In this document: positions 16,696-43,377 of the stretch, one piece after another
Position numbering within the stretch: position 1 is the stretch's first letter
Layout: each line of letters starts with the position of its first letter
Assembly (NCBI GenBank): GCA_965235115.1
Contig: OZ249436.1
Coordinates: forward strand, 22,012,001-22,076,000
Origin: Laetmonice hystrix
Taxonomy: Eukaryota
Length of the DNA: 64,000 bases
Reading direction: 5' to 3'
The notes under the pieces: generated by a model
Told to the model about the DNA's origin: nothing
Databases searched by the model: none
The model's input: only the letters and a program-made list of their open reading frames with translations
Position numbers and translations under genes: made by a program

Positions 16696-16792
16696 GTAGG
16701 GGCCTGATGGGAAACTCACTATACAAAGGAATTTTACTTCTGGTTGCCAAAGTCAACATTCAGAGAGTGTCACCCATACCCACCAAAGCATC

Positions 16793-17214: not shown

Positions 17215-17286
17215 CTGTTTTTTTCCTGGTAGGTGTAGCTCTAGTTTAGGTCTAACCCCGAGCTCTCTCACCGCCATAATTTATGT

Positions 17287-19243: not shown

Positions 19244-19340
19244 GTAGGGGCCTGATGGGAAACTCACTATACAAAGGAATTTTACTTCTGGTTGCCAAAG
19301 TCAACATTCAGAGAGTGTCACCCATACCCACCAAAGCATC

Positions 19341-19762: not shown

Positions 19763-19834
19763 CTGTTTTTTTCCTGGTAGGTGTAGCTCTAGTTTAGGTC
19801 TAACCCCGAGCTCTCTCACCGCCATAATTTATGT

Positions 19835-23607: not shown

Positions 23608-23704
23608 GTAGGGGCCTGATGGGAAACTCACTATACAAAGGAATTTTACTTCTGGTTGCCAAAGTCAACATTCAGAGAGTGTCACCCATACCCACCAAAG
23701 CATC

Positions 23705-24126
23705 ATGGAGCCGCGGCAGTTTGTCACAAAAGTACAGGGCAGGTTACTGAGTAAAAGTAGACTCGTTTGTGGAGGGTGCCTCCTGTGGACAGAGGCCAGG
23801 ACTGGTGGGGAGATTCACACTATGGGGTTCTAAGTCTTCGTTTGCCAGGTTCCTCTAAAAAGATTTATTTTCGTGTCCATAGATTAGCCTATCAATTACA
23901 CTACCTTATTCAACAACCAAATATTAACCACATTTCGGTTCAGATTTTAATGCCCCCCAACATCAATCTTCAGGGAGATAGGGTTGAAATTAGCCATTTG
24001 TGCCACCAAACCCTGTGTGTGAATCCCTCCCACCTGACCCTTGAGCCACGTCCAGTGAATGCTGCAAGACGTGTTTGTAATGCACAGCAAGTTTGCACCC
24101 GGGAACACACCCCTAGGCCCCCCTAA
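23705..24126 (+). pseudogene. His-Me finger nuclease, frameshifted, copy 8
   Basis: Same translation as copy 1. Confidence 0.85.
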
Positions 24127-24198
24127 CTGTTTTTTTCCTGGTAGGTGTAGCTCTAGTTTAGGTCTAACCCCGAGCTCTCTCACCGCCATAATTTATGT

Positions 24199-24981
24199 TC
24201 ACATTTTTGTGTAGGTATGGTCACTGTGCTGAGTCTGTTTCAAGGCAAGATTTTTCTGGTAATAAGTTTTAGAATCCTGTGGTTCGCAGGTGTCCTTAAG
24301 CTTAAAAAGTGTCCTTCTTTTGTTGATTCGTGCATTCTTTTTCTTTGTTGACCCCCTGGCAAGTTTTCTGGCCATGTCCTGCTGCTGACGTCGCAGCAGG
24401 CCACGTGTCACCCGTGTACCAGGAGTGACTGGGGCTCCCACAAACTCCGCTTGACTCAGGATTGAATCACCAATCCCTCGATTTACAGCATTCACAGCAC
24501 AGTGCACTCTGGCAGCAAAGTTCCTTGAAAATGTTTTGTTCTTGGGTGTTGTACTGCTTATGGCCCTGTTGACAGCTTCACATTTCTGGGTGGTTAACAG
24601 GTGTTTGGTCTTTTCCAGGACTTTCTGGCCCAGCCTGTATTCAATCAGTCTGACCAGTTTCTCCTTGTCACCATCCGTGCATGTAAGGCCAAAGCCCTCA
24701 GGCAGGAATGCACTGTGTGACAGCCAGTTTTTCTTCTTTTTTGCTTTGCAAGGCCTTGCCTTGCACAGCCGGCCCTCACTGTCGGTGATGGTGGCTGCAG
24801 CCTGATCTCCTCTTCCACTGTGTGTAGGTGAGCGGAGTAATATGAATTCTTCTTTGGTGGGTCTTACATAGACACCTACGTCTGGTTCAGGCCTACCGGC
24901 CTGCTTTCTCAACTTGTAGGCGCAGTTACCAGGTTGAAAGCCATGTCTCCAGCTGTGCTTCTTTCTGCTACGTGATGTCAT
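24199..24981 (-). CDS. Internally deleted DDE transposase, 260 aa, copy 8
   Basis: Same translation as 5279-6061. Confidence 0.75.
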   Translation of the reverse strand: MTSRSRKKHSWRHGFQPGNCAYKLRKQAGRPEPDVGVYVRPTKEEFILLRSPTHSGRGDQAAATITDSEGRLCKARPCKAKKKKNWLSHSAFLPEGFGLTCTDGDKEKLVRLIEYRLGQKVLEKTKHLLTTQKCEAVNRAISSTTPKNKTFSRNFAARVHCAVNAVNRGIGDSILSQAEFVGAPVTPGTRVTRGLLRRQQQDMARKLARGSTKKKNARINKRRTLFKLKDTCEPQDSKTYYQKNLALKQTQHSDHTYTKM

Positions 24982-25800
24982 GGTAGTTTTCTAAGAAATT
25001 CTCTATAATTTAGGCGAATTTTTTTCAAAATCCTGTTCTAATCAAACAGAAAAATGATACTGAGTTTGATCTGCCTGTTGGCTTCATATATACCCACTCC
25101 CACCCTCTTCCCAGGCAGCTCAGACTCTCAAGTGGCACCTTTGAACCCCTCCCCCTAATAACCTAGGCTTCCTGCCTGGGGTGGGTGACCACCTTTGAGG
25201 GGTCCATACATCCACACAGACACTTGGAGTACATCTCTTTTGATGTTTCTTTGAAGTGAACATCCTTCCCATATTCCCTCAACTGAATTTGACACTTTTG
25301 AAATCCAACATAGGGAGATATGGGGATAAATATAATAAAATGGACCTTTTTTTTACTGAAAATATGACAGGGGATACTCACATGCTTCATAGGGAATGAA
25401 GATTCTCACTTTATATTTATTAATTTCAACTTTTGAACACTTTACATGTTGGCTTAATACATAACTAAAATGAGAAGTTCATAGATGAATTTATTCATTG
25501 TCTAATTTGTGCACAAAGTCAGAATACTGCTATGAGTGCAGGGCAAAATAGGGGTTTTTTATCTCCGAGTGTCCATATTGTATATGATCGATAACTCAGT
25601 CTTCATTTAGTCTACACCATTTATATTTTGTGTGGTTGTTGCAAACATATAACCATTAAAGGGGTCCAATTTTGAACAGATTCGGGGTGATGGGTCTTGA
25701 TCTGTAGGGGCCTGATGGGAAACTCACTATACAAAGGAATTTTACTTCTGGTTGCCAAAGTCAACATTCAGAGAGTGTCACCCATACCCACCAAAGCATC

Positions 25801-26222
25801 ATGGAGCCGCGGCAGTTTGTCACAAAAGTACAGGGCAGGTTACTGAGTAAAAGTAGACTCGTTTGTGGAGGGTGCCTCCTGTGGACAGAGGCCAGGACTG
25901 GTGGGGAGATTCACACTATGGGGTTCTAAGTCTTCGTTTGCCAGGTTCCTCTAAAAAGATTTATTTTCGTGTCCATAGATTAGCCTATCAATTACACTAC
26001 CTTATTCAACAACCAAATATTAACCACATTTCGGTTCAGATTTTAATGCCCCCCAACATCAATCTTCAGGGAGATAGGGTTGAAATTAGCCATTTGTGCC
26101 ACCAAACCCTGTGTGTGAATCCCTCCCACCTGACCCTTGAGCCACGTCCAGTGAATGCTGCAAGACGTGTTTGTAATGCACAGCAAGTTTGCACCCGGGA
26201 ACACACCCCTAGGCCCCCCTAA
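25801..26222 (+). pseudogene. His-Me finger nuclease, frameshifted, copy 9
   Basis: Same translation as copy 1; preceded by an LTDR-less junction. Confidence 0.85.
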
Positions 26223-26294
26223 CTGTTTTTTTCCTGGTAGGTGTAGCTCTAGTTTAGGTCTAACCCCGAGCTCTCTCACCGCCATAATTTATGT

Positions 26295-27077
26295 TCACAT
26301 TTTTGTGTAGGTATGGTCACTGTGCTGAGTCTGTTTCAAGGCAAGATTTTTCTGGTAATAAGTTTTAGAATCCTGTGGTTCGCAGGTGTCCTTAAGCTTA
26401 AAAAGTGTCCTTCTTTTGTTGATTCGTGCATTCTTTTTCTTTGTTGACCCCCTGGCAAGTTTTCTGGCCATGTCCTGCTGCTGACGTCGCAGCAGGCCAC
26501 GTGTCACCCGTGTACCAGGAGTGACTGGGGCTCCCACAAACTCCGCTTGACTCAGGATTGAATCACCAATCCCTCGATTTACAGCATTCACAGCACAGTG
26601 CACTCTGGCAGCAAAGTTCCTTGAAAATGTTTTGTTCTTGGGTGTTGTACTGCTTATGGCCCTGTTGACAGCTTCACATTTCTGGGTGGTTAACAGGTGT
26701 TTGGTCTTTTCCAGGACTTTCTGGCCCAGCCTGTATTCAATCAGTCTGACCAGTTTCTCCTTGTCACCATCCGTGCATGTAAGGCCAAAGCCCTCAGGCA
26801 GGAATGCACTGTGTGACAGCCAGTTTTTCTTCTTTTTTGCTTTGCAAGGCCTTGCCTTGCACAGCCGGCCCTCACTGTCGGTGATGGTGGCTGCAGCCTG
26901 ATCTCCTCTTCCACTGTGTGTAGGTGAGCGGAGTAATATGAATTCTTCTTTGGTGGGTCTTACATAGACACCTACGTCTGGTTCAGGCCTACCGGCCTGC
27001 TTTCTCAACTTGTAGGCGCAGTTACCAGGTTGAAAGCCATGTCTCCAGCTGTGCTTCTTTCTGCTACGTGATGTCAT
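26295..27077 (-). CDS. Internally deleted DDE transposase, 260 aa, copy 9
   Basis: Same translation as 5279-6061. Confidence 0.75.
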   Translation of the reverse strand: MTSRSRKKHSWRHGFQPGNCAYKLRKQAGRPEPDVGVYVRPTKEEFILLRSPTHSGRGDQAAATITDSEGRLCKARPCKAKKKKNWLSHSAFLPEGFGLTCTDGDKEKLVRLIEYRLGQKVLEKTKHLLTTQKCEAVNRAISSTTPKNKTFSRNFAARVHCAVNAVNRGIGDSILSQAEFVGAPVTPGTRVTRGLLRRQQQDMARKLARGSTKKKNARINKRRTLFKLKDTCEPQDSKTYYQKNLALKQTQHSDHTYTKM

Positions 27078-27801
27078 GGTAGTTTTCTAAGAAATTCTCT
27101 ATAATTTAGGCGAATTTTTTTCAAAATCCTGTTCTAATCAAACAGAAAAATGATACTGAGTTTGATCTGCCTGTTGGCTTCATATATACCCACTCCCACC
27201 CTCTTCCCAGGCAGCTCAGACTCTCAAGTGGCACCTTTGAACCCCTCCCCCTAATAACCTAGGCTTCCTGCCTGGGGTGGGTGACCACCTTTGAGGGGTC
27301 CATACATCCACACAGACACTTGGAGTACATCTCTTTTGATGTTTCTTTGAAGTGAACATCCTTCCCATATTCCCTCAACTGAATTTGACACTTTTGAAAT
27401 CCAACATAGGGAGATATGGGGATAAATATAATAAAATGGACCCTTTTTTTACTGAAAATATGACAGGGGATACTCACATGCTTCATAGGGAATGAAGATT
27501 CTCACTTTATATTTATTAATTTCAACTTTTGAACACTTTACATGTTGGCTTAATACATAACTAAAATGAGAAGTTCATAGATGAATTTATTCATTGTCTA
27601 ATTTGTGCACAAAGTCAGAATACTGCTATGAGTGCAGGGCAAAATAGGGGTTTTTTATCTCCGAGTGTCCATATTGTATATGATCGATAACTCAGTCTTC
27701 ATTTAGTCTACACCATTTATATTTTGTGTGGTTGTTGCAAACATATAACCATTAAAGGGGTCCAATTTTGAACAGATTCGGGGTGATGGGTCTTGATCTG
27801 T

Positions 27802-28251
27802 AGGTCATGACCCCCTATTTAGCCAATGGGCTGCTGGTTGTCCCTCAAAATGGTATGGAGTGAATGTATCTAGGGCCAAGAATGGATATAACCCCCCTGA
27901 ATGTGCTCATCAAATACCACAGAGAAAAAGTTCACTATATGATCAATAATATCAGTGTATTATTAGAGAATATCTGCTTAACTTTCCTTGGAAAATCTTA
28001 GCCAATATGTTATGTATCACAGGCCTGTATTCTGGTCGATTTGGTGGTGCCACCTGGGGTCATGTAACAGAAGCTCCGATAAAATAAAATCTAATCATTC
28101 AACCTATACGTAAATTGAGTTTTTATTGTCGGAAACATGCATATCTAACCTGCCATGCCAAGCAGACATTCGCAGAAATTATTTTAAACATTGAAAATGG
28201 CCAAAACATTACATTAAATTATAGAAGAAAATAAATAGTGGATCATAACCT
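27802..28251. repeat. LTDR, 450 bp
   Basis: Copy of 4238-4687. Confidence 0.88.
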
Positions 28252-28348
28252 GTAGGGGCCTGATGGGAAACTCACTATACAAAGGAATTTTACTTCTGGT
28301 TGCCAAAGTCAACATTCAGAGAGTGTCACCCATACCCACCAAAGCATC

Positions 28349-28770
28349 ATGGAGCCGCGGCAGTTTGTCACAAAAGTACAGGGCAGGTTACTGAGTAAAA
28401 GTAGACTCGTTTGTGGAGGGTGCCTCCTGTGGACAGAGGCCAGGACTGGTGGGGAGATTCACACTATGGGGTTCTAAGTCTTCGTTTGCCAGGTTCCTCT
28501 AAAAAGATTTATTTTCGTGTCCATAGATTAGCCTATCAATTACACTACCTTATTCAACAACCAAATATTAACCACATTTCGGTTCAGATTTTAATGCCCC
28601 CCAACATCAATCTTCAGGGAGATAGGGTTGAAATTAGCCATTTGTGCCACCAAACCCTGTGTGTGAATCCCTCCCACCTGACCCTTGAGCCACGTCCAGT
28701 GAATGCTGCAAGACGTGTTTGTAATGCACAGCAAGTTTGCACCCGGGAACACACCCCTAGGCCCCCCTAA
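28349..28770 (+). pseudogene. His-Me finger nuclease, frameshifted, copy 10
   Basis: Same translation as copy 1. Confidence 0.85.
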
Positions 28771-28842
28771 CTGTTTTTTTCCTGGTAGGTGTAGCTCTAG
28801 TTTAGGTCTAACCCCGAGCTCTCTCACCGCCATAATTTATGT

Positions 28843-29625
28843 TCACATTTTTGTGTAGGTATGGTCACTGTGCTGAGTCTGTTTCAAGGCAAGATTTTTC
28901 TGGTAATAAGTTTTAGAATCCTGTGGTTCGCAGGTGTCCTTAAGCTTAAAAAGTGTCCTTCTTTTGTTGATTCGTGCATTCTTTTTCTTTGTTGACCCCC
29001 TGGCAAGTTTTCTGGCCATGTCCTGCTGCTGACGTCGCAGCAGGCCACGTGTCACCCGTGTACCAGGAGTGACTGGGGCTCCCACAAACTCCGCTTGACT
29101 CAGGATTGAATCACCAATCCCTCGATTTACAGCATTCACAGCACAGTGCACTCTGGCAGCAAAGTTCCTTGAAAATGTTTTGTTCTTGGGTGTTGTACTG
29201 CTTATGGCCCTGTTGACAGCTTCACATTTCTGGGTGGTTAACAGGTGTTTGGTCTTTTCCAGGACTTTCTGGCCCAGCCTGTATTCAATCAGTCTGACCA
29301 GTTTCTCCTTGTCACCATCCGTGCATGTAAGGCCAAAGCCCTCAGGCAGGAATGCACTGTGTGACAGCCAGTTTTTCTTCTTTTTTGCTTTGCAAGGCCT
29401 TGCCTTGCACAGCCGGCCCTCACTGTCGGTGATGGTGGCTGCAGCCTGATCTCCTCTTCCACTGTGTGTAGGTGAGCGGAGTAATATGAATTCTTCTTTG
29501 GTGGGTCTTACATAGACACCTACGTCTGGTTCAGGCCTACCGGCCTGCTTTCTCAACTTGTAGGCGCAGTTACCAGGTTGAAAGCCATGTCTCCAGCTGT
29601 GCTTCTTTCTGCTACGTGATGTCAT
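28843..29625 (-). CDS. Internally deleted DDE transposase, 260 aa, copy 10
   Basis: Same translation as 5279-6061. Confidence 0.75.
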   Translation of the reverse strand: MTSRSRKKHSWRHGFQPGNCAYKLRKQAGRPEPDVGVYVRPTKEEFILLRSPTHSGRGDQAAATITDSEGRLCKARPCKAKKKKNWLSHSAFLPEGFGLTCTDGDKEKLVRLIEYRLGQKVLEKTKHLLTTQKCEAVNRAISSTTPKNKTFSRNFAARVHCAVNAVNRGIGDSILSQAEFVGAPVTPGTRVTRGLLRRQQQDMARKLARGSTKKKNARINKRRTLFKLKDTCEPQDSKTYYQKNLALKQTQHSDHTYTKM

Positions 29626-30444
29626 GGTAGTTTTCTAAGAAATTCTCTATAATTTAGGCGAATTTTTTTCAAAATCCTGTTCTAATCAAACAGAAAAATG
29701 ATACTGAGTTTGATCTGCCTGTTGGCTTCATATATACCCACTCCCACCCTCTTCCCAGGCAGCTCAGACTCTCAAGTGGCACCTTTGAACCCCTCCCCCT
29801 AATAACCTAGGCTTCCTGCCTGGGGTGGGTGACCACCTTTGAGGGGTCCATACATCCACACAGACACTTGGAGTACATCTCTTTTGATGTTTCTTTGAAG
29901 TGAACATCCTTCCCATATTCCCTCAACTGAATTTGACACTTTTGAAATCCAACATAGGGAGATATGGGGATAAATATAATAAAATGGACCTTTTTTTTAC
30001 TGAAAATATGACAGGGGATACTCACATGCTTCATAGGGAATGAAGATTCTCACTTTATATTTATTAATTTCAACTTTTGAACACTTTACATGTTGGCTTA
30101 ATACATAACTAAAATGAGAAGTTCATAGATGAATTTATTCATTGTCTAATTTGTGCACAAAGTCAGAATACTGCTATGAGTGCAGGGCAAAATAGGGGTT
30201 TTTTATCTCCGAGTGTCCATATTGTATATGATCGATAACTCAGTCTTCATTTAGTCTACACCATTTATATTTTGTGTGGTTGTTGCAAACATATAACCAT
30301 TAAAGGGGTCCAATTTTGAACAGATTCGGGGTGATGGGTCTTGATCTGTAGGGGCCTGATGGGAAACTCACTATACAAAGGAATTTTACTTCTGGTTGCC
30401 AAAGTCAACATTCAGAGAGTGTCACCCATACCCACCAAAGCATC

Positions 30445-30866
30445 ATGGAGCCGCGGCAGTTTGTCACAAAAGTACAGGGCAGGTTACTGAGTAAAAGTAG
30501 ACTCGTTTGTGGAGGGTGCCTCCTGTGGACAGAGGCCAGGACTGGTGGGGAGATTCACACTATGGGGTTCTAAGTCTTCGTTTGCCAGGTTCCTCTAAAA
30601 AGATTTATTTTCGTGTCCATAGATTAGCCTATCAATTACACTACCTTATTCAACAACCAAATATTAACCACATTTCGGTTCAGATTTTAATGCCCCCCAA
30701 CATCAATCTTCAGGGAGATAGGGTTGAAATTAGCCATTTGTGCCACCAAACCCTGTGTGTGAATCCCTCCCACCTGACCCTTGAGCCACGTCCAGTGAAT
30801 GCTGCAAGACGTGTTTGTAATGCACAGCAAGTTTGCACCCGGGAACACACCCCTAGGCCCCCCTAA
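30445..30866 (+). pseudogene. His-Me finger nuclease, frameshifted, copy 11
   Basis: Same translation as copy 1. Confidence 0.85.
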
Positions 30867-30938
30867 CTGTTTTTTTCCTGGTAGGTGTAGCTCTAGTTTA
30901 GGTCTAACCCCGAGCTCTCTCACCGCCATAATTTATGT

Positions 30939-31721
30939 TCACATTTTTGTGTAGGTATGGTCACTGTGCTGAGTCTGTTTCAAGGCAAGATTTTTCTGGT
31001 AATAAGTTTTAGAATCCTGTGGTTCGCAGGTGTCCTTAAGCTTAAAAAGTGTCCTTCTTTTGTTGATTCGTGCATTCTTTTTCTTTGTTGACCCCCTGGC
31101 AAGTTTTCTGGCCATGTCCTGCTGCTGACGTCGCAGCAGGCCACGTGTCACCCGTGTACCAGGAGTGACTGGGGCTCCCACAAACTCCGCTTGACTCAGG
31201 ATTGAATCACCAATCCCTCGATTTACAGCATTCACAGCACAGTGCACTCTGGCAGCAAAGTTCCTTGAAAATGTTTTGTTCTTGGGTGTTGTACTGCTTA
31301 TGGCCCTGTTGACAGCTTCACATTTCTGGGTGGTTAACAGGTGTTTGGTCTTTTCCAGGACTTTCTGGCCCAGCCTGTATTCAATCAGTCTGACCAGTTT
31401 CTCCTTGTCACCATCCGTGCATGTAAGGCCAAAGCCCTCAGGCAGGAATGCACTGTGTGACAGCCAGTTTTTCTTCTTTTTTGCTTTGCAAGGCCTTGCC
31501 TTGCACAGCCGGCCCTCACTGTCGGTGATGGTGGCTGCAGCCTGATCTCCTCTTCCACTGTGTGTAGGTGAGCGGAGTAATATGAATTCTTCTTTGGTGG
31601 GTCTTACATAGACACCTACGTCTGGTTCAGGCCTACCGGCCTGCTTTCTCAACTTGTAGGCGCAGTTACCAGGTTGAAAGCCATGTCTCCAGCTGTGCTT
31701 CTTTCTGCTACGTGATGTCAT
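30939..31721 (-). CDS. Internally deleted DDE transposase, 260 aa, copy 11
   Basis: Same translation as 5279-6061. Confidence 0.75.
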   Translation of the reverse strand: MTSRSRKKHSWRHGFQPGNCAYKLRKQAGRPEPDVGVYVRPTKEEFILLRSPTHSGRGDQAAATITDSEGRLCKARPCKAKKKKNWLSHSAFLPEGFGLTCTDGDKEKLVRLIEYRLGQKVLEKTKHLLTTQKCEAVNRAISSTTPKNKTFSRNFAARVHCAVNAVNRGIGDSILSQAEFVGAPVTPGTRVTRGLLRRQQQDMARKLARGSTKKKNARINKRRTLFKLKDTCEPQDSKTYYQKNLALKQTQHSDHTYTKM

Positions 31722-32540
31722 GGTAGTTTTCTAAGAAATTCTCTATAATTTAGGCGAATTTTTTTCAAAATCCTGTTCTAATCAAACAGAAAAATGATAC
31801 TGAGTTTGATCTGCCTGTTGGCTTCATATATACCCACTCCCACCCTCTTCCCAGGCAGCTCAGACTCTCAAGTGGCACCTTTGAACCCCTCCCCCTAATA
31901 ACCTAGGCTTCCTGCCTGGGGTGGGTGACCACCTTTGAGGGGTCCATACATCCACACAGACACTTGGAGTACATCTCTTTTGATGTTTCTTTGAAGTGAA
32001 CATCCTTCCCATATTCCCTCAACTGAATTTGACACTTTTGAAATCCAACATAGGGAGATATGGGGATAAATATAATAAAATGGACCTTTTTTTTACTGAA
32101 AATATGACAGGGGATACTCACATGCTTCATAGGGAATGAAGATTCTCACTTTATATTTATTAATTTCAACTTTTGAACACTTTACATGTTGGCTTAATAC
32201 ATAACTAAAATGAGAAGTTCATAGATGAATTTATTCATTGTCTAATTTGTGCACAAAGTCAGAATACTGCTATGAGTGCAGGGCAAAATAGGGGTTTTTT
32301 ATCTCCGAGTGTCCATATTGTATATGATCGATAACTCAGTCTTCATTTAGTCTACACCATTTATATTTTGTGTGGTTGTTGCAAACATATAACCATTAAA
32401 GGGGTCCAATTTTGAACAGATTCGGGGTGATGGGTCTTGATCTGTAGGGGCCTGATGGGAAACTCACTATACAAAGGAATTTTACTTCTGGTTGCCAAAG
32501 TCAACATTCAGAGAGTGTCACCCATACCCACCAAAGCATC

Positions 32541-32962
32541 ATGGAGCCGCGGCAGTTTGTCACAAAAGTACAGGGCAGGTTACTGAGTAAAAGTAGACTC
32601 GTTTGTGGAGGGTGCCTCCTGTGGACAGAGGCCAGGACTGGTGGGGAGATTCACACTATGGGGTTCTAAGTCTTCGTTTGCCAGGTTCCTCTAAAAAGAT
32701 TTATTTTCGTGTCCATAGATTAGCCTATCAATTACACTACCTTATTCAACAACCAAATATTAACCACATTTCGGTTCAGATTTTAATGCCCCCCAACATC
32801 AATCTTCAGGGAGATAGGGTTGAAATTAGCCATTTGTGCCACCAAACCCTGTGTGTGAATCCCTCCCACCTGACCCTTGAGCCACGTCCAGTGAATGCTG
32901 CAAGACGTGTTTGTAATGCACAGCAAGTTTGCACCCGGGAACACACCCCTAGGCCCCCCTAA
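32541..32962 (+). pseudogene. His-Me finger nuclease, frameshifted, copy 12
   Basis: Same translation as copy 1. Confidence 0.85.
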
Positions 32963-33034
32963 CTGTTTTTTTCCTGGTAGGTGTAGCTCTAGTTTAGGTC
33001 TAACCCCGAGCTCTCTCACCGCCATAATTTATGT

Positions 33035-33817
33035 TCACATTTTTGTGTAGGTATGGTCACTGTGCTGAGTCTGTTTCAAGGCAAGATTTTTCTGGTAATA
33101 AGTTTTAGAATCCTGTGGTTCGCAGGTGTCCTTAAGCTTAAAAAGTGTCCTTCTTTTGTTGATTCGTGCATTCTTTTTCTTTGTTGACCCCCTGGCAAGT
33201 TTTCTGGCCATGTCCTGCTGCTGACGTCGCAGCAGGCCACGTGTCACCCGTGTACCAGGAGTGACTGGGGCTCCCACAAACTCCGCTTGACTCAGGATTG
33301 AATCACCAATCCCTCGATTTACAGCATTCACAGCACAGTGCACTCTGGCAGCAAAGTTCCTTGAAAATGTTTTGTTCTTGGGTGTTGTACTGCTTATGGC
33401 CCTGTTGACAGCTTCACATTTCTGGGTGGTTAACAGGTGTTTGGTCTTTTCCAGGACTTTCTGGCCCAGCCTGTATTCAATCAGTCTGACCAGTTTCTCC
33501 TTGTCACCATCCGTGCATGTAAGGCCAAAGCCCTCAGGCAGGAATGCACTGTGTGACAGCCAGTTTTTCTTCTTTTTTGCTTTGCAAGGCCTTGCCTTGC
33601 ACAGCCGGCCCTCACTGTCGGTGATGGTGGCTGCAGCCTGATCTCCTCTTCCACTGTGTGTAGGTGAGCGGAGTAATATGAATTCTTCTTTGGTGGGTCT
33701 TACATAGACACCTACGTCTGGTTCAGGCCTACCGGCCTGCTTTCTCAACTTGTAGGCGCAGTTACCAGGTTGAAAGCCATGTCTCCAGCTGTGCTTCTTT
33801 CTGCTACGTGATGTCAT
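33035..33817 (-). CDS. Internally deleted DDE transposase, 260 aa, copy 12
   Basis: Same translation as 5279-6061. Confidence 0.75.
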   Translation of the reverse strand: MTSRSRKKHSWRHGFQPGNCAYKLRKQAGRPEPDVGVYVRPTKEEFILLRSPTHSGRGDQAAATITDSEGRLCKARPCKAKKKKNWLSHSAFLPEGFGLTCTDGDKEKLVRLIEYRLGQKVLEKTKHLLTTQKCEAVNRAISSTTPKNKTFSRNFAARVHCAVNAVNRGIGDSILSQAEFVGAPVTPGTRVTRGLLRRQQQDMARKLARGSTKKKNARINKRRTLFKLKDTCEPQDSKTYYQKNLALKQTQHSDHTYTKM

Positions 33818-34541
33818 GGTAGTTTTCTAAGAAATTCTCTATAATTTAGGCGAATTTTTTTCAAAATCCTGTTCTAATCAAACAGAAAAATGATACTGAG
33901 TTTGATCTGCCTGTTGGCTTCATATATACCCACTCCCACCCTCTTCCCAGGCAGCTCAGACTCTCAAGTGGCACCTTTGAACCCCTCCCCCTAATAACCT
34001 AGGCTTCCTGCCTGGGGTGGGTGACCACCTTTGAGGGGTCCATACATCCACACAGACACTTGGAGTACATCTCTTTTGATGTTTCTTTGAAGTGAACATC
34101 CTTCCCATATTCCCTCAACTGAATTTGACACTTTTGAAATCCAACATAGGGAGATATGGGGATAAATATAATAAAATGGACCCTTTTTTTACTGAAAATA
34201 TGACAGGGGATACTCACATGCTTCATAGGGAATGAAGATTCTCACTTTATATTTATTAATTTCAACTTTTGAACACTTTACATGTTGGCTTAATACATAA
34301 CTAAAATGAGAAGTTCATAGATGAATTTATTCATTGTCTAATTTGTGCACAAAGTCAGAATACTGCTATGAGTGCAGGGCAAAATAGGGGTTTTTTATCT
34401 CCGAGTGTCCATATTGTATATGATCGATAACTCAGTCTTCATTTAGTCTACACCATTTATATTTTGTGTGGTTGTTGCAAACATATAACCATTAAAGGGG
34501 TCCAATTTTGAACAGATTCGGGGTGATGGGTCTTGATCTGT

Positions 34542-34991
34542 AGGTCATGACCCCCTATTTAGCCAATGGGCTGCTGGTTGTCCCTCAAAATGGTATGGAG
34601 TGAATGTATCTAGGGCCAAGAATGGATATAACCCCCCTGAATGTGCTCATCAAATACCACAGAGAAAAAGTTCACTATATGATCAATAATATCAGTGTAT
34701 TATTAGAGAATATCTGCTTAACTTTCCTTGGAAAATCTTAGCCAATATGTTATGTATCACAGGCCTGTATTCTGGTCGATTTGGTGGTGCCACCTGGGGT
34801 CATGTAACAGAAGCTCCGATAAAATAAAATCTAATCATTCAACCTATACGTAAATTGAGTTTTTATTGTCGGAAACATGCATATCTAACCTGCCATGCCA
34901 AGCAGACATTCGCAGAAATTATTTTAAACATTGAAAATGGCCAAAACATTACATTAAATTATAGAAGAAAATAAATAGTGGATCATAACCT
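34542..34991. repeat. LTDR, 450 bp
   Basis: Copy of 4238-4687. Confidence 0.88.
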
Positions 34992-35088
34992 GTAGGGGCC
35001 TGATGGGAAACTCACTATACAAAGGAATTTTACTTCTGGTTGCCAAAGTCAACATTCAGAGAGTGTCACCCATACCCACCAAAGCATC

Positions 35089-35510
35089 ATGGAGCCGCGG
35101 CAGTTTGTCACAAAAGTACAGGGCAGGTTACTGAGTAAAAGTAGACTCGTTTGTGGAGGGTGCCTCCTGTGGACAGAGGCCAGGACTGGTGGGGAGATTC
35201 ACACTATGGGGTTCTAAGTCTTCGTTTGCCAGGTTCCTCTAAAAAGATTTATTTTCGTGTCCATAGATTAGCCTATCAATTACACTACCTTATTCAACAA
35301 CCAAATATTAACCACATTTCGGTTCAGATTTTAATGCCCCCCAACATCAATCTTCAGGGAGATAGGGTTGAAATTAGCCATTTGTGCCACCAAACCCTGT
35401 GTGTGAATCCCTCCCACCTGACCCTTGAGCCACGTCCAGTGAATGCTGCAAGACGTGTTTGTAATGCACAGCAAGTTTGCACCCGGGAACACACCCCTAG
35501 GCCCCCCTAA
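35089..35510 (+). pseudogene. His-Me finger nuclease, frameshifted, copy 13
   Basis: Same translation as copy 1. Confidence 0.85.
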
Positions 35511-35582
35511 CTGTTTTTTTCCTGGTAGGTGTAGCTCTAGTTTAGGTCTAACCCCGAGCTCTCTCACCGCCATAATTTATGT

Positions 35583-36365
35583 TCACATTTTTGTGTAGGT
35601 ATGGTCACTGTGCTGAGTCTGTTTCAAGGCAAGATTTTTCTGGTAATAAGTTTTAGAATCCTGTGGTTCGCAGGTGTCCTTAAGCTTAAAAAGTGTCCTT
35701 CTTTTGTTGATTCGTGCATTCTTTTTCTTTGTTGACCCCCTGGCAAGTTTTCTGGCCATGTCCTGCTGCTGACGTCGCAGCAGGCCACGTGTCACCCGTG
35801 TACCAGGAGTGACTGGGGCTCCCACAAACTCCGCTTGACTCAGGATTGAATCACCAATCCCTCGATTTACAGCATTCACAGCACAGTGCACTCTGGCAGC
35901 AAAGTTCCTTGAAAATGTTTTGTTCTTGGGTGTTGTACTGCTTATGGCCCTGTTGACAGCTTCACATTTCTGGGTGGTTAACAGGTGTTTGGTCTTTTCC
36001 AGGACTTTCTGGCCCAGCCTGTATTCAATCAGTCTGACCAGTTTCTCCTTGTCACCATCCGTGCATGTAAGGCCAAAGCCCTCAGGCAGGAATGCACTGT
36101 GTGACAGCCAGTTTTTCTTCTTTTTTGCTTTGCAAGGCCTTGCCTTGCACAGCCGGCCCTCACTGTCGGTGATGGTGGCTGCAGCCTGATCTCCTCTTCC
36201 ACTGTGTGTAGGTGAGCGGAGTAATATGAATTCTTCTTTGGTGGGTCTTACATAGACACCTACGTCTGGTTCAGGCCTACCGGCCTGCTTTCTCAACTTG
36301 TAGGCGCAGTTACCAGGTTGAAAGCCATGTCTCCAGCTGTGCTTCTTTCTGCTACGTGATGTCAT
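35583..36365 (-). CDS. Internally deleted DDE transposase, 260 aa, copy 13
   Basis: Same translation as 5279-6061. Confidence 0.75.
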   Translation of the reverse strand: MTSRSRKKHSWRHGFQPGNCAYKLRKQAGRPEPDVGVYVRPTKEEFILLRSPTHSGRGDQAAATITDSEGRLCKARPCKAKKKKNWLSHSAFLPEGFGLTCTDGDKEKLVRLIEYRLGQKVLEKTKHLLTTQKCEAVNRAISSTTPKNKTFSRNFAARVHCAVNAVNRGIGDSILSQAEFVGAPVTPGTRVTRGLLRRQQQDMARKLARGSTKKKNARINKRRTLFKLKDTCEPQDSKTYYQKNLALKQTQHSDHTYTKM

Positions 36366-37184
36366 GGTAGTTTTCTAAGAAATTCTCTATAATTTAGGCG
36401 AATTTTTTTCAAAATCCTGTTCTAATCAAACAGAAAAATGATACTGAGTTTGATCTGCCTGTTGGCTTCATATATACCCACTCCCACCCTCTTCCCAGGC
36501 AGCTCAGACTCTCAAGTGGCACCTTTGAACCCCTCCCCCTAATAACCTAGGCTTCCTGCCTGGGGTGGGTGACCACCTTTGAGGGGTCCATACATCCACA
36601 CAGACACTTGGAGTACATCTCTTTTGATGTTTCTTTGAAGTGAACATCCTTCCCATATTCCCTCAACTGAATTTGACACTTTTGAAATCCAACATAGGGA
36701 GATATGGGGATAAATATAATAAAATGGACCTTTTTTTTACTGAAAATATGACAGGGGATACTCACATGCTTCATAGGGAATGAAGATTCTCACTTTATAT
36801 TTATTAATTTCAACTTTTGAACACTTTACATGTTGGCTTAATACATAACTAAAATGAGAAGTTCATAGATGAATTTATTCATTGTCTAATTTGTGCACAA
36901 AGTCAGAATACTGCTATGAGTGCAGGGCAAAATAGGGGTTTTTTATCTCCGAGTGTCCATATTGTATATGATCGATAACTCAGTCTTCATTTAGTCTACA
37001 CCATTTATATTTTGTGTGGTTGTTGCAAACATATAACCATTAAAGGGGTCCAATTTTGAACAGATTCGGGGTGATGGGTCTTGATCTGTAGGGGCCTGAT
37101 GGGAAACTCACTATACAAAGGAATTTTACTTCTGGTTGCCAAAGTCAACATTCAGAGAGTGTCACCCATACCCACCAAAGCATC

Positions 37185-37606
37185 ATGGAGCCGCGGCAGT
37201 TTGTCACAAAAGTACAGGGCAGGTTACTGAGTAAAAGTAGACTCGTTTGTGGAGGGTGCCTCCTGTGGACAGAGGCCAGGACTGGTGGGGAGATTCACAC
37301 TATGGGGTTCTAAGTCTTCGTTTGCCAGGTTCCTCTAAAAAGATTTATTTTCGTGTCCATAGATTAGCCTATCAATTACACTACCTTATTCAACAACCAA
37401 ATATTAACCACATTTCGGTTCAGATTTTAATGCCCCCCAACATCAATCTTCAGGGAGATAGGGTTGAAATTAGCCATTTGTGCCACCAAACCCTGTGTGT
37501 GAATCCCTCCCACCTGACCCTTGAGCCACGTCCAGTGAATGCTGCAAGACGTGTTTGTAATGCACAGCAAGTTTGCACCCGGGAACACACCCCTAGGCCC
37601 CCCTAA
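37185..37606 (+). pseudogene. His-Me finger nuclease, frameshifted, copy 14
   Basis: Same translation as copy 1. Confidence 0.85.
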
Positions 37607-37678
37607 CTGTTTTTTTCCTGGTAGGTGTAGCTCTAGTTTAGGTCTAACCCCGAGCTCTCTCACCGCCATAATTTATGT

Positions 37679-38461
37679 TCACATTTTTGTGTAGGTATGG
37701 TCACTGTGCTGAGTCTGTTTCAAGGCAAGATTTTTCTGGTAATAAGTTTTAGAATCCTGTGGTTCGCAGGTGTCCTTAAGCTTAAAAAGTGTCCTTCTTT
37801 TGTTGATTCGTGCATTCTTTTTCTTTGTTGACCCCCTGGCAAGTTTTCTGGCCATGTCCTGCTGCTGACGTCGCAGCAGGCCACGTGTCACCCGTGTACC
37901 AGGAGTGACTGGGGCTCCCACAAACTCCGCTTGACTCAGGATTGAATCACCAATCCCTCGATTTACAGCATTCACAGCACAGTGCACTCTGGCAGCAAAG
38001 TTCCTTGAAAATGTTTTGTTCTTGGGTGTTGTACTGCTTATGGCCCTGTTGACAGCTTCACATTTCTGGGTGGTTAACAGGTGTTTGGTCTTTTCCAGGA
38101 CTTTCTGGCCCAGCCTGTATTCAATCAGTCTGACCAGTTTCTCCTTGTCACCATCCGTGCATGTAAGGCCAAAGCCCTCAGGCAGGAATGCACTGTGTGA
38201 CAGCCAGTTTTTCTTCTTTTTTGCTTTGCAAGGCCTTGCCTTGCACAGCCGGCCCTCACTGTCGGTGATGGTGGCTGCAGCCTGATCTCCTCTTCCACTG
38301 TGTGTAGGTGAGCGGAGTAATATGAATTCTTCTTTGGTGGGTCTTACATAGACACCTACGTCTGGTTCAGGCCTACCGGCCTGCTTTCTCAACTTGTAGG
38401 CGCAGTTACCAGGTTGAAAGCCATGTCTCCAGCTGTGCTTCTTTCTGCTACGTGATGTCAT
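37679..38461 (-). CDS. Internally deleted DDE transposase, 260 aa, copy 14
   Basis: Same translation as 5279-6061. Confidence 0.75.
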   Translation of the reverse strand: MTSRSRKKHSWRHGFQPGNCAYKLRKQAGRPEPDVGVYVRPTKEEFILLRSPTHSGRGDQAAATITDSEGRLCKARPCKAKKKKNWLSHSAFLPEGFGLTCTDGDKEKLVRLIEYRLGQKVLEKTKHLLTTQKCEAVNRAISSTTPKNKTFSRNFAARVHCAVNAVNRGIGDSILSQAEFVGAPVTPGTRVTRGLLRRQQQDMARKLARGSTKKKNARINKRRTLFKLKDTCEPQDSKTYYQKNLALKQTQHSDHTYTKM

Positions 38462-39280
38462 GGTAGTTTTCTAAGAAATTCTCTATAATTTAGGCGAATT
38501 TTTTTCAAAATCCTGTTCTAATCAAACAGAAAAATGATACTGAGTTTGATCTGCCTGTTGGCTTCATATATACCCACTCCCACCCTCTTCCCAGGCAGCT
38601 CAGACTCTCAAGTGGCACCTTTGAACCCCTCCCCCTAATAACCTAGGCTTCCTGCCTGGGGTGGGTGACCACCTTTGAGGGGTCCATACATCCACACAGA
38701 CACTTGGAGTACATCTCTTTTGATGTTTCTTTGAAGTGAACATCCTTCCCATATTCCCTCAACTGAATTTGACACTTTTGAAATCCAACATAGGGAGATA
38801 TGGGGATAAATATAATAAAATGGACCTTTTTTTTACTGAAAATATGACAGGGGATACTCACATGCTTCATAGGGAATGAAGATTCTCACTTTATATTTAT
38901 TAATTTCAACTTTTGAACACTTTACATGTTGGCTTAATACATAACTAAAATGAGAAGTTCATAGATGAATTTATTCATTGTCTAATTTGTGCACAAAGTC
39001 AGAATACTGCTATGAGTGCAGGGCAAAATAGGGGTTTTTTATCTCCGAGTGTCCATATTGTATATGATCGATAACTCAGTCTTCATTTAGTCTACACCAT
39101 TTATATTTTGTGTGGTTGTTGCAAACATATAACCATTAAAGGGGTCCAATTTTGAACAGATTCGGGGTGATGGGTCTTGATCTGTAGGGGCCTGATGGGA
39201 AACTCACTATACAAAGGAATTTTACTTCTGGTTGCCAAAGTCAACATTCAGAGAGTGTCACCCATACCCACCAAAGCATC

Positions 39281-39702
39281 ATGGAGCCGCGGCAGTTTGT
39301 CACAAAAGTACAGGGCAGGTTACTGAGTAAAAGTAGACTCGTTTGTGGAGGGTGCCTCCTGTGGACAGAGGCCAGGACTGGTGGGGAGATTCACACTATG
39401 GGGTTCTAAGTCTTCGTTTGCCAGGTTCCTCTAAAAAGATTTATTTTCGTGTCCATAGATTAGCCTATCAATTACACTACCTTATTCAACAACCAAATAT
39501 TAACCACATTTCGGTTCAGATTTTAATGCCCCCCAACATCAATCTTCAGGGAGATAGGGTTGAAATTAGCCATTTGTGCCACCAAACCCTGTGTGTGAAT
39601 CCCTCCCACCTGACCCTTGAGCCACGTCCAGTGAATGCTGCAAGACGTGTTTGTAATGCACAGCAAGTTTGCACCCGGGAACACACCCCTAGGCCCCCCT
39701 AA
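39281..39702 (+). pseudogene. His-Me finger nuclease, frameshifted, copy 15
   Basis: Same translation as copy 1. Confidence 0.85.
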
Positions 39703-39774
39703 CTGTTTTTTTCCTGGTAGGTGTAGCTCTAGTTTAGGTCTAACCCCGAGCTCTCTCACCGCCATAATTTATGT

Positions 39775-40557
39775 TCACATTTTTGTGTAGGTATGGTCAC
39801 TGTGCTGAGTCTGTTTCAAGGCAAGATTTTTCTGGTAATAAGTTTTAGAATCCTGTGGTTCGCAGGTGTCCTTAAGCTTAAAAAGTGTCCTTCTTTTGTT
39901 GATTCGTGCATTCTTTTTCTTTGTTGACCCCCTGGCAAGTTTTCTGGCCATGTCCTGCTGCTGACGTCGCAGCAGGCCACGTGTCACCCGTGTACCAGGA
40001 GTGACTGGGGCTCCCACAAACTCCGCTTGACTCAGGATTGAATCACCAATCCCTCGATTTACAGCATTCACAGCACAGTGCACTCTGGCAGCAAAGTTCC
40101 TTGAAAATGTTTTGTTCTTGGGTGTTGTACTGCTTATGGCCCTGTTGACAGCTTCACATTTCTGGGTGGTTAACAGGTGTTTGGTCTTTTCCAGGACTTT
40201 CTGGCCCAGCCTGTATTCAATCAGTCTGACCAGTTTCTCCTTGTCACCATCCGTGCATGTAAGGCCAAAGCCCTCAGGCAGGAATGCACTGTGTGACAGC
40301 CAGTTTTTCTTCTTTTTTGCTTTGCAAGGCCTTGCCTTGCACAGCCGGCCCTCACTGTCGGTGATGGTGGCTGCAGCCTGATCTCCTCTTCCACTGTGTG
40401 TAGGTGAGCGGAGTAATATGAATTCTTCTTTGGTGGGTCTTACATAGACACCTACGTCTGGTTCAGGCCTACCGGCCTGCTTTCTCAACTTGTAGGCGCA
40501 GTTACCAGGTTGAAAGCCATGTCTCCAGCTGTGCTTCTTTCTGCTACGTGATGTCAT
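39775..40557 (-). CDS. Internally deleted DDE transposase, 260 aa, copy 15
   Basis: Same translation as 5279-6061. Confidence 0.75.
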   Translation of the reverse strand: MTSRSRKKHSWRHGFQPGNCAYKLRKQAGRPEPDVGVYVRPTKEEFILLRSPTHSGRGDQAAATITDSEGRLCKARPCKAKKKKNWLSHSAFLPEGFGLTCTDGDKEKLVRLIEYRLGQKVLEKTKHLLTTQKCEAVNRAISSTTPKNKTFSRNFAARVHCAVNAVNRGIGDSILSQAEFVGAPVTPGTRVTRGLLRRQQQDMARKLARGSTKKKNARINKRRTLFKLKDTCEPQDSKTYYQKNLALKQTQHSDHTYTKM

Positions 40558-41376
40558 GGTAGTTTTCTAAGAAATTCTCTATAATTTAGGCGAATTTTTT
40601 TCAAAATCCTGTTCTAATCAAACAGAAAAATGATACTGAGTTTGATCTGCCTGTTGGCTTCATATATACCCACTCCCACCCTCTTCCCAGGCAGCTCAGA
40701 CTCTCAAGTGGCACCTTTGAACCCCTCCCCCTAATAACCTAGGCTTCCTGCCTGGGGTGGGTGACCACCTTTGAGGGGTCCATACATCCACACAGACACT
40801 TGGAGTACATCTCTTTTGATGTTTCTTTGAAGTGAACATCCTTCCCATATTCCCTCAACTGAATTTGACACTTTTGAAATCCAACATAGGGAGATATGGG
40901 GATAAATATAATAAAATGGACCTTTTTTTTACTGAAAATATGACAGGGGATACTCACATGCTTCATAGGGAATGAAGATTCTCACTTTATATTTATTAAT
41001 TTCAACTTTTGAACACTTTACATGTTGGCTTAATACATAACTAAAATGAGAAGTTCATAGATGAATTTATTCATTGTCTAATTTGTGCACAAAGTCAGAA
41101 TACTGCTATGAGTGCAGGGCAAAATAGGGGTTTTTTATCTCCGAGTGTCCATATTGTATATGATCGATAACTCAGTCTTCATTTAGTCTACACCATTTAT
41201 ATTTTGTGTGGTTGTTGCAAACATATAACCATTAAAGGGGTCCAATTTTGAACAGATTCGGGGTGATGGGTCTTGATCTGTAGGGGCCTGATGGGAAACT
41301 CACTATACAAAGGAATTTTACTTCTGGTTGCCAAAGTCAACATTCAGAGAGTGTCACCCATACCCACCAAAGCATC

Positions 41377-41798
41377 ATGGAGCCGCGGCAGTTTGTCACA
41401 AAAGTACAGGGCAGGTTACTGAGTAAAAGTAGACTCGTTTGTGGAGGGTGCCTCCTGTGGACAGAGGCCAGGACTGGTGGGGAGATTCACACTATGGGGT
41501 TCTAAGTCTTCGTTTGCCAGGTTCCTCTAAAAAGATTTATTTTCGTGTCCATAGATTAGCCTATCAATTACACTACCTTATTCAACAACCAAATATTAAC
41601 CACATTTCGGTTCAGATTTTAATGCCCCCCAACATCAATCTTCAGGGAGATAGGGTTGAAATTAGCCATTTGTGCCACCAAACCCTGTGTGTGAATCCCT
41701 CCCACCTGACCCTTGAGCCACGTCCAGTGAATGCTGCAAGACGTGTTTGTAATGCACAGCAAGTTTGCACCCGGGAACACACCCCTAGGCCCCCCTAA
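41377..41798 (+). pseudogene. His-Me finger nuclease, frameshifted, copy 16
   Basis: Same translation as copy 1. Confidence 0.85.
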
Positions 41799-41870
41799 CT
41801 GTTTTTTTCCTGGTAGGTGTAGCTCTAGTTTAGGTCTAACCCCGAGCTCTCTCACCGCCATAATTTATGT

Positions 41871-42653
41871 TCACATTTTTGTGTAGGTATGGTCACTGTG
41901 CTGAGTCTGTTTCAAGGCAAGATTTTTCTGGTAATAAGTTTTAGAATCCTGTGGTTCGCAGGTGTCCTTAAGCTTAAAAAGTGTCCTTCTTTTGTTGATT
42001 CGTGCATTCTTTTTCTTTGTTGACCCCCTGGCAAGTTTTCTGGCCATGTCCTGCTGCTGACGTCGCAGCAGGCCACGTGTCACCCGTGTACCAGGAGTGA
42101 CTGGGGCTCCCACAAACTCCGCTTGACTCAGGATTGAATCACCAATCCCTCGATTTACAGCATTCACAGCACAGTGCACTCTGGCAGCAAAGTTCCTTGA
42201 AAATGTTTTGTTCTTGGGTGTTGTACTGCTTATGGCCCTGTTGACAGCTTCACATTTCTGGGTGGTTAACAGGTGTTTGGTCTTTTCCAGGACTTTCTGG
42301 CCCAGCCTGTATTCAATCAGTCTGACCAGTTTCTCCTTGTCACCATCCGTGCATGTAAGGCCAAAGCCCTCAGGCAGGAATGCACTGTGTGACAGCCAGT
42401 TTTTCTTCTTTTTTGCTTTGCAAGGCCTTGCCTTGCACAGCCGGCCCTCACTGTCGGTGATGGTGGCTGCAGCCTGATCTCCTCTTCCACTGTGTGTAGG
42501 TGAGCGGAGTAATATGAATTCTTCTTTGGTGGGTCTTACATAGACACCTACGTCTGGTTCAGGCCTACCGGCCTGCTTTCTCAACTTGTAGGCGCAGTTA
42601 CCAGGTTGAAAGCCATGTCTCCAGCTGTGCTTCTTTCTGCTACGTGATGTCAT
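41871..42653 (-). CDS. Internally deleted DDE transposase, 260 aa, copy 16
   Basis: Same translation as 5279-6061. Confidence 0.75.
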   Translation of the reverse strand: MTSRSRKKHSWRHGFQPGNCAYKLRKQAGRPEPDVGVYVRPTKEEFILLRSPTHSGRGDQAAATITDSEGRLCKARPCKAKKKKNWLSHSAFLPEGFGLTCTDGDKEKLVRLIEYRLGQKVLEKTKHLLTTQKCEAVNRAISSTTPKNKTFSRNFAARVHCAVNAVNRGIGDSILSQAEFVGAPVTPGTRVTRGLLRRQQQDMARKLARGSTKKKNARINKRRTLFKLKDTCEPQDSKTYYQKNLALKQTQHSDHTYTKM

Positions 42654-43377
42654 GGTAGTTTTCTAAGAAATTCTCTATAATTTAGGCGAATTTTTTTCAA
42701 AATCCTGTTCTAATCAAACAGAAAAATGATACTGAGTTTGATCTGCCTGTTGGCTTCATATATACCCACTCCCACCCTCTTCCCAGGCAGCTCAGACTCT
42801 CAAGTGGCACCTTTGAACCCCTCCCCCTAATAACCTAGGCTTCCTGCCTGGGGTGGGTGACCACCTTTGAGGGGTCCATACATCCACACAGACACTTGGA
42901 GTACATCTCTTTTGATGTTTCTTTGAAGTGAACATCCTTCCCATATTCCCTCAACTGAATTTGACACTTTTGAAATCCAACATAGGGAGATATGGGGATA
43001 AATATAATAAAATGGACCTTTTTTTTACTGAAAATATGACAGGGGATACTCACATGCTTCATAGGGAATGAAGATTCTCACTTTATATTTATTAATTTCA
43101 ACTTTTGAACACTTTACATGTTGGCTTAATACATAACTAAAATGAGAAGTTCATAGATGAATTTATTCATTGTCTAATTTGTGCACAAAGTCAGAATACT
43201 GCTATGAGTGCAGGGCAAAATAGGGGTTTTTTATCTCCGAGTGTCCATATTGTATATGATCGATAACTCAGTCTTCATTTAGTCTACACCATTTATATTT
43301 TGTGTGGTTGTTGCAAACATATAACCATTAAAGGGGTCCAATTTTGAACAGATTCGGGGTGATGGGTCTTGATCTGT

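What the first reader, a model, noticed from the sequence alone, without database searches (positions are those of the whole stretch)
25692..41290. LTDR cleanly absent at six junctions, leaving GATCT-GT-AGGGG
Seen: at GT positions 25704, 30348, 32444, 37088, 39184 and 41280, exactly 452 bp (450-bp LTDR plus one GT) is missing and INT joins INT. This is the footprint expected if the TIR-bounded LTDR excised precisely like a MITE with a 2-bp GT duplication. LTDR excision has been proposed for KolobokP (from recall). Caveat seen in the sequence: both LTDR borders share a 7-bp microhomology CTGTAGG, so microhomology-mediated deletion gives the same product. All six probably descend from one event, as they cluster in the right half.
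Basis: partly seen in the sequence, partly recalled or inferred. Interest (0 to 1): 0.72.

Follow-up and report, generated by a model that had tools for sequence, protein, structure and literature searches.

The report
Known KolobokP repeat loss, then copied
In a head-to-tail row of a crippled marine-invertebrate jumping gene (KolobokP), one 448-base end repeat plus 4 bases is cleanly missing at six identical junctions, a junction type published in 2022 that was likely made by one or a few cut-outs by a related transposase and then likely copied along the row.

Summary
Observation confirmed: six identical INT-INT junctions each lack exactly 452 bp, and the same joint stands in contigs of three public runs from one sample, so it is not an assembly error. 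The array is a non-autonomous KolobokP: transposase with a ~408-residue in-frame deletion, frameshifted His-Me nuclease on the other strand. Kojima and Bao 2022 describe this junction (one TATA left) and ascribe it to LTDR excision. Clustering (P about 0.005) and a shared SNP show copying; parsimony cannot separate one from four losses. Untargeted microhomology deletion is unlikely (1 of 182 pairs of 7 bp or more), but host slippage helped by the inverted repeats is not excluded. Family-specific extra: the INT end next to the repeat mimics the TIR (9 of 11). The scan reported this junction type before, once in this genome and twice in other genomes. Known structure, apparently uncatalogued family.

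The parts
1..43826 (-). Tandem array of a non-autonomous KolobokP family: 16 INT copies, 10 whole LTDRs and one partial; runs off the left window edge. The element's direct strand (transposase) is the minus strand
25703..25706 (.). INT-INT junction 1: single TGTA left (inside the 7-bp CTGTAGG, 25702-25708)
30347..30350 (.). INT-INT junction 2, single TGTA
32443..32446 (.). INT-INT junction 3, single TGTA
37087..37090 (.). INT-INT junction 4, single TGTA
39183..39186 (.). INT-INT junction 5, single TGTA
41279..41282 (.). INT-INT junction 6, single TGTA
4239..4686 (.). Reference LTDR, 448 bp, GG..CC, imperfect TIR 15 of 18. Identical copies at 6787, 11151, 13699, 16247, 18795, 23159, 27803, 34543, 43379; partial at 1-318
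4687..6786 (.). Reference INT, 2100 bp counting the TGTA at each end
4785..5206 (+). His-Me finger (His-Cys box) nuclease gene in two frames; the frame changes near 4879, where contigs of X2, X3 and part of X4 have 5 bases fewer
   Evidence: PF05551 E 1.6e-13
5279..6061 (-). Transposase remnant: N-terminal ~77 aa fused in frame to the C-terminal ~182 aa; ~408 aa with the first two catalytic aspartates (by alignment) missing
   Evidence: 47% and 73% identity to P0001 residues 52-127 and 536-719; PF20700 relatives; alignment
4224..4234 (-). TIR-like end of INT (9 of 11 match to the adjoining LTDR TIR); with TGTA it forms a 26-bp near-palindrome at every INT/LTDR joint; also at 25692-25702 and the other empty junctions
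   Evidence: fold z = -1.47
27443..27443 (.). T-to-C variant in INT, shared with position 34183; marks two INT+LTDR units inside the junction zone as copies of one another
43827..43830 (.). Right flank TGTT, candidate 4-bp target duplication (left end outside the window)
8370..10185 (+). 1816-bp Helentron/HINE-like insertion at a TT in INT (also about 1454-3273 and 20378-22193); never next to an empty junction
   Evidence: features as in PMC4067079 passages

Best explanation
The six junctions are sites in a non-autonomous KolobokP array where one 448-bp LTDR and one of the two flanking TGTA are missing; the loss was likely made by an intact KolobokP transposase from elsewhere in the genome acting on the LTDR's two inverted ends, and the resulting INT-INT unit was then likely multiplied by unequal crossover. 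Steps: (1) shown: precise 452-bp absence, TIR-bounded, one TGTA left; (2) shown: the array's own transposase lacks its core and its nuclease is frameshifted, so any enzyme came in trans; (3) inferred from PMC9587614's model: the LTDR leaves with a target-length spacer from one side (copy-out circle of 452 bp), or by 4-nt staggered cuts whose identical ends rejoin; both give this product; (4) partly shown: copying of blocks inside the array (shared SNP, exact repeats of 7.2 to 10.6 kb spanning junctions, clustering); the number of original losses in this window is most simply 1 to 4.
For: Deletion ends fall on the TIR-bounded unit. It is the only loss among the array's units apart from 4 bp in the microsatellite of the nested insert, while the unit offers 182 other or equal direct-repeat pairs of 7 bp or more at 50-1000 bp spacing, 41 at 350-550 bp. 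The same junction with one 4-mer left is published for KolobokP-1_MeMe and -4_MyCo. In the Fig. S3 text for 1_MeMe the shared sequence is only TATA, so a 7-bp homology is not needed. One 1_MeMe insertion repeats the same unusual junction three times, a precedent for one loss then copying (my reading of the extracted text). LTDR ends are joined to several different flanks in public contigs, so the family has moved recently. The identical joint is abundant in X4-X6, whose INT differs from the window's at six positions where no window-type letter is listed (5233, 5530, 5564, 5922, 5923, 6634), which hints at a second, independent loss.
Against: The product cannot be told from a host deletion at the 7-bp homology. 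No variant footprint (450-455 bp) was listed in X1-X7, whereas the paper finds 1-5 bp variation. No LTDR circle or LTDR-LTDR joint was listed. No solo LTDR with both flanks could be seen (no genome held; no hit in metagenome contigs). X4/X5 also hold 121-bp and 33-bp deletions at depths 865-4874 with only 2-3 shared letters, so ordinary deletions do arise and spread in this family, and abundance is no sign of recurrence. The haplotype hint can be explained by an old junction plus homogenisation, and contigs drop variants. A paper search for Kolobok with excision and footprint listed six papers, none by title or abstract start an excision experiment; a 2026 review says the paper's nuclease-driven crossover model awaits confirmation.
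Confidence: 0.6

Rival explanations
1. Host-made precise loss without transposase: the LTDR's inverted ends pair on single-stranded DNA, or a break at the near-palindromic INT/LTDR joint is repaired, and slippage or end joining across CTGTAGG removes the repeat (as recalled for transposase-independent precise excision of bacterial Tn10; recalled, no call).
For: 7-bp homology directly outside/at the TIRs; only one footprint seen; near-palindrome at one border; explains why this pair of 182 was used.
Against: TIR stem is short and imperfect (15 of 18) across 448 bp; the junction hairpin is weak (-5.7 kcal/mol, 15 of 200 shuffles as good); published families show the same loss with 4-bp homology and with 1-5-bp variants.
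Confidence: 0.22
2. One-off untargeted microhomology deletion that happened to remove exactly the LTDR, then amplified.
For: One loss plus four duplications explains the window at minimal cost; other random deletions are amplified in X4/X5.
Against: About 1 in 182 if 7-bp pairs are equally used (the figure ignores that readers notice only neat cases); the same structure recurs in other families.
Confidence: 0.08
3. No LTDR was lost: INT plus one TGTA was gained, by crossover between the two TGTA-centred homologies of sister copies or by insertion of an INT circle.
For: INT+TGTA (2096 bp) is the repeating unit in runs of 1, 2 and 3; the product is the same sequence.
Against: The reciprocal LTDR-TGTA-LTDR joint was not listed in X1-X7 (contigs show presence only); INT has a TIR-like sequence at one end only.
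Confidence: 0.08
4. Assembly artefact in a near-identical array.
For: Units are 99.9-100% identical, so order and count could be misassembled.
Against: The joint is in contigs of three public runs at depths in the thousands.
Confidence: 0.02

Closest known systems
KolobokP LTDR-(INT)n-LTDR multimers, e.g. KolobokP-1_MeMe, -4_MyCo, -7_MeMe (Kojima and Bao 2022, PMC9587614)
   Same: About 450-bp LTDR with short TIRs and GG..CC ends; INT that begins and ends with the same 4-mer; abutted INTs with one 4-mer left; transposase on the direct strand and His-Me nuclease downstream on the other; multimers; the same junction repeated within one insertion.
   Different: 4-mer is TGTA and the homology extends to 7 bp; array is at least 16 units (43.8 kb) with six empty junctions; terminal 11-12-mers were not found in the paper's Data S1, so the family seems uncatalogued there; one INT end mimics the TIR.
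KolobokP-4N1_CorFlu and -7N2_CorFlu LTDR-INT / INT-LTDR / solo INT copies (PMC9587614 Fig. 2, Table 3)
   Same: Loss of one LTDR with 1-5 flanking bases from one side; a loose end in X5 joins the INT end, minus TGTA, straight to other DNA, which would be the INT-LTDR form.
   Different: There the loss is at a terminal LTDR and footprints vary; here it is internal and a single footprint was seen. 4N1_CorFlu INT has no TIR-like start.
MITE excision with a 2-bp TSD (Tc1/mariner-Stowaway type; recalled)
   Same: Short TIR-bounded non-coding unit absent, one copy of a short repeat left.
   Different: GT is not constant in the flanks; the family has mostly 3-5-bp TSDs; the unit is the terminal repeat of a composite element.
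Bacterial copy-out IS families (IS3, IS256) as invoked in PMC9587614
   Same: Predicts a circle with abutted TIRs and a TSD-length spacer from one side, which matches 448 + 4.
   Different: No circle seen here; the pathway is untested for Kolobok.

Membership tests
KolobokP | LTDR-INT-LTDR with LTDR of about 450 or 660 bp | tested here: met
   448 bp, 10 identical whole copies
KolobokP | LTDR has its own short TIRs with 5'-RR..YY-3' ends | tested here: met
   GG..CC, 15 of 18; AG..CT parse 17 of 20
KolobokP | DDD/E Kolobok transposase on the direct strand | tested here: inconclusive
   Only a deleted remnant here; 73% identical to full-length PF20700 proteins that show DxxH and the zinc-finger cysteines; shares TQKCEAVNR with a record in the paper's alignment (record name not seen). 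Six other peptides gave no hit in that file. No tree with the paper's sequences was possible.
KolobokP | His-Me finger nuclease downstream on the complementary strand | tested here: met
   PF05551 E 1.6e-13, opposite strand, frameshifted; same arrangement suggested in relatives: 21 of 30 transposase loci gave a minus-strand nuclease hit at E <= 0.01
KolobokP | 3-5-bp TSD around whole insertions | not testable with these tools
   Left end of the array is outside the window; no genome held; contigs show one flank at a time
KolobokP | Multimers (LTDR-INT)n-LTDR, sometimes with abutted INTs lacking 3-4 bp | tested here: met
KolobokP | Solo LTDRs with TSD | tested here: inconclusive
   No solo locus retrieved; several LTDR-flank joints seen, one end only
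MITE with 2-bp GT target duplication | Constant 2-bp GT duplication at insertion sites | tested here: not met
   Read with AG..CT ends, flanks give AT, TT, AC or GT on the left and AA or GT on the right; one flank starts directly after CC (only 9 of 16 and 18 of 33 loose ends were shown)
MITE with 2-bp GT target duplication | Dispersed free copies | not testable with these tools
   No copy in 43828-64000; no genome held

The most novel reading that the evidence does not exclude
In this family the INT end carries a working second TIR, so INT+LTDR (2544 bp) is itself a complete TIR-bounded transposon and every INT/LTDR joint mimics the abutted-TIR joint of an excised circle. The transposase then cuts LTDRs and whole units out of very large arrays repeatedly, and the empty GATC-TGTA-GGGG site is a preferred target for putting an LTDR back: a reversible composite transposon in an animal, with the same precise loss arisen independently on two INT lineages.
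Probability: 0.1. Interest if true: 0.55.

Novelty: new member of a known kind. Interest (0 to 1): 0.2.

Why it matters
It is a clean, young, high-copy example of a structure that the 2022 paper inferred from older bivalve copies. LTDR excision in KolobokP rests on genome comparison in that paper, and this family offers near-identical filled and empty junctions, close intact transposase relatives (P0001, P0002) and a sharp prediction (a 452-bp circle with a TGTA spacer), so it is a handy test system. It does not by itself add a new mechanism.

Tried and rejected
Whole-genome search: no genome held. Exact 24-base LTDR end in metagenome contigs: 0 hits. Transposase profile in viral contigs: 43 pattern hits, 0 relatives. 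TIR-like INT end as a general KolobokP trait, and as the cause of the paper's 40:6 INT-LTDR excess: rejected. Of 30 fetched loci 18 were scanned; in the nine whose candidate LTDR I judged credible by eye (L001, L004, L006, L010, L011, L015, L016, L017, L021, plus L026 as a tenth, weaker one) the INT start matched the TIR at 2-5 of 11, against 9 of 11 here (boundaries are my candidates, unverified); 4N1_CorFlu INT matches 5 of 11 by eye. First unrestricted TIR scan gave mostly chance pairs. Hairpin at the junctions: weak or none. Parsimony to prove a single loss: ties for 1-4 losses. Naming the nearest published family by motif search in supplement 3: no terminal match, one 12-mer hit inside an unrelated INT, no hit for six peptides; line breaks and alignment gaps can hide matches, and supplement 4 was cut when stored. 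Pfam gave no family for the transposase remnant itself. Run X7 laid nothing on the junction region. Depths of contigs were not used as copy numbers.
Full report
Observation. The window from 1 to 43826 is a tandem array. Cutting it at every CTGTAGG gives nine identical 450-bp segments, thirteen 2094-bp segments and three longer ones that carry an insertion; a tenth whole repeat ends the array. At the six positions named, one 2094-bp segment joins the next across GT. The filled form is 452 bp longer and otherwise identical over 502 bp each side of 25704, and all six junctions share at least 2098 bp left and 1739 bp right exactly. A joint that skips 452 bp with 7 shared letters is present in contigs of runs X4, X5 and X6, which are one sample; it was not listed for X1-X3 and X7 laid nothing. 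The junction therefore exists outside this assembly.

What the element is. INT holds a His-Me finger nuclease frame on the plus strand (PF05551, E 1.6e-13), split over two frames near 4879, where contigs of X2, X3 and part of X4 have five bases fewer. On the minus strand is a 260-residue frame whose first 77 and last 182 residues match residues 52-127 and 536-719 of a 719-residue PF20700 protein: an in-frame loss of about 408 residues that, by alignment, takes out the first two catalytic aspartates. This is the KolobokP layout of Kojima and Bao 2022 (PMC9587614; I read parts 1-5 of 6 of the text, that is all but the end of the references, Table S1 whole, supplement 2 parts 1-2 of 7 plus passages, and search passages of supplements 3 and 4). 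The array cannot supply either enzyme itself.

Correct parse. Because of the 7-bp homology the deletion can be drawn as 450 + GT or 448 + TGTA. The published LTDRs I saw end GG..CC, Table S1 gives mostly 3-5-bp TSDs, and many INTs start and end with the same 4-mer (TATA, TTAA). Read that way, the LTDR here is 448 bp with a 15-of-18 TIR, INT starts and ends with TGTA, and the array's right flank is TGTT. Loose ends in public contigs give left 4-mers AATA, ATTA, CACA, AGTA, TGTA and right 4-mers TAAA, GTTA and TGTA four times; the GTTA flank follows CC directly (9 of 16 and 18 of 33 loose ends shown). GT is thus not a constant duplication. TSD length could not be measured since no insertion was seen with both flanks.

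It is in print. [quoted passage not shown] In the Fig. S3 text the 1_MeMe junctions share only TATA, and one insertion shows one unusual junction three times (my reading of extracted PDF text). Two library searches for KolobokP and for Kolobok with LTDR gave this paper and one review; the review passage says the nuclease-driven crossover model awaits confirmation (PMC13565253, passages). A search for Kolobok, excision, footprint, transposon listed six papers, seen as listings only apart from the 2022 paper.

How many events. Six of 15 internal junctions are empty, all in the last eight (P 0.0056; two-sided rank test 0.0048). Both full junctions inside that zone follow an INT with the same T-to-C change (27443, 34183), so a block was copied. 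A search over losses, SNPs and tandem duplications for the last ten units needs six events for one, two, three or four losses, seven for five and eight for six. So copying is supported, a single origin is plausible from the clustering, but it is not proved.

Excision or deletion. The sequence cannot separate them. For a directed event: the unit has 182 direct-repeat pairs of 7 bp or more at 50-1000 bp spacing, and the one used bounds the TIRs; the same loss occurs in other families with 4-bp homology; X4 lists no window-type letter at six INT positions yet holds the identical joint, which hints at a separate loss. Against: only one footprint was listed; no circle or LTDR-LTDR joint was listed; 121-bp and 33-bp deletions with 2-3 shared letters are also abundant in X4/X5, so random deletions spread in this family too; the haplotype hint could reflect an old junction and homogenisation, and contigs drop variants. 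I put transposase excision in trans at 0.6, host loss guided by the TIRs or the palindrome at 0.22, untargeted deletion and INT gain at 0.08 each, artefact at 0.02. The chemistry (copy-out circle, or 4-nt staggered cuts as recalled for piggyBac) is inferred, not shown.

A family-specific extra. The INT end that abuts the LTDR reads inward as a 9-of-11 copy of the neighbouring TIR. In the unit only the two true TIRs and this site reach that score (3 of 5074 positions); in the non-array part of the window 3 of 40318 do. The match was noticed after the fact, and the TIR's last 10 bases are themselves a palindrome, so it may equally be a degenerate 14-bp tandem copy. It makes INT+LTDR a TIR-bounded unit. 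One loose end in X5 (two contigs, agreement 0.78) leaves INT exactly at that end (4234), which fits use of the hidden TIR but equally the published loss of a terminal LTDR with four bases. Related loci do not have it (2-5 of 11) nor does 4N1_CorFlu by eye, and the hairpin is weak. It does not produce INT-INT junctions by itself.

Earlier notes of this scan (unchecked AI notes, consulted after my reading was set) report the same junction type 188 kb upstream in this genome and in two other genomes, each filed as known. I could not check them.

Verdict. Real, correctly spotted, slightly misparsed, and already described; the family appears uncatalogued in the 2022 data as far as motif searches reach. 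Interest 0.2.

Noticed in passing
window 1454-3273, 8370-10185, 20378-22193: 1816-1820-bp gene-less insertion at a TT inside the transposase remnant, with 5' inverted repeat, (GTCC)n microsatellite, internal ~459-bp duplication, subterminal inverted repeat and 3' hairpin: Helentron/HINE (DINE-1-like) features per PMC4067079 passages. Three copies differ only by one GTCC; one insertion copied with the array.
   Followed up: partly
window 4224-4249 and every INT/LTDR joint: 26-bp near-palindrome centred on TGTA, because the INT end mimics the TIR (9 of 11); absent in related loci.
   Followed up: yes
window 43827-43856: Right flank TGTTAGGGG resembles the INT start TGTAGGGG and opens a small hairpin (TAGGGG..CCCCTA). 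Four of six right flanks shown from public contigs start TGTA, three TGTAGG: possible target preference for INT-junction-like sites, or INT remnants.
   Followed up: partly
window 4234 (run X5): INT end without TGTA or LTDR joined to foreign DNA in two contigs; candidate INT-LTDR copy.
   Followed up: no
window 4879, 5293, 5338: 5-6-bp length differences between the window's INT and contigs of other runs; the one at 4879 lies where the nuclease frame changes.
   Followed up: partly
L004:187-217: In another KolobokP-like family two LTDRs abut with a 9-bp spacer made of the first 5 and last 4 bases of INT, as if INT had dropped out; may be an assembly join.
   Followed up: no
L001, L002, L006, L009-L011, L013-L016: Metagenome contigs of 3.4-4.4 kb with terminal overlaps, consistent with collapsed LTDR+INT units of autonomous KolobokP relatives.
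   Followed up: partly
window 46413-46590 and 46845-46974: Two short palindromic elements with the same GGGCCCGGTT ends, MITE-like, nested in a further inverted-repeat element (about 46611-47047).
   Followed up: no
window 51608-53769, 54535-55317, 55624-56469, 60263-61569: Minisatellites of 73 bp (two arrays), 42 bp and 62 bp; the long ORFs at 55558-56709 arise from the 42-bp repeat.
   Followed up: no
window 45275-45382 and 49106-49333: Inverted copies of a hairpin-rich 45-bp-unit repeat about 4 kb apart.
   Followed up: no
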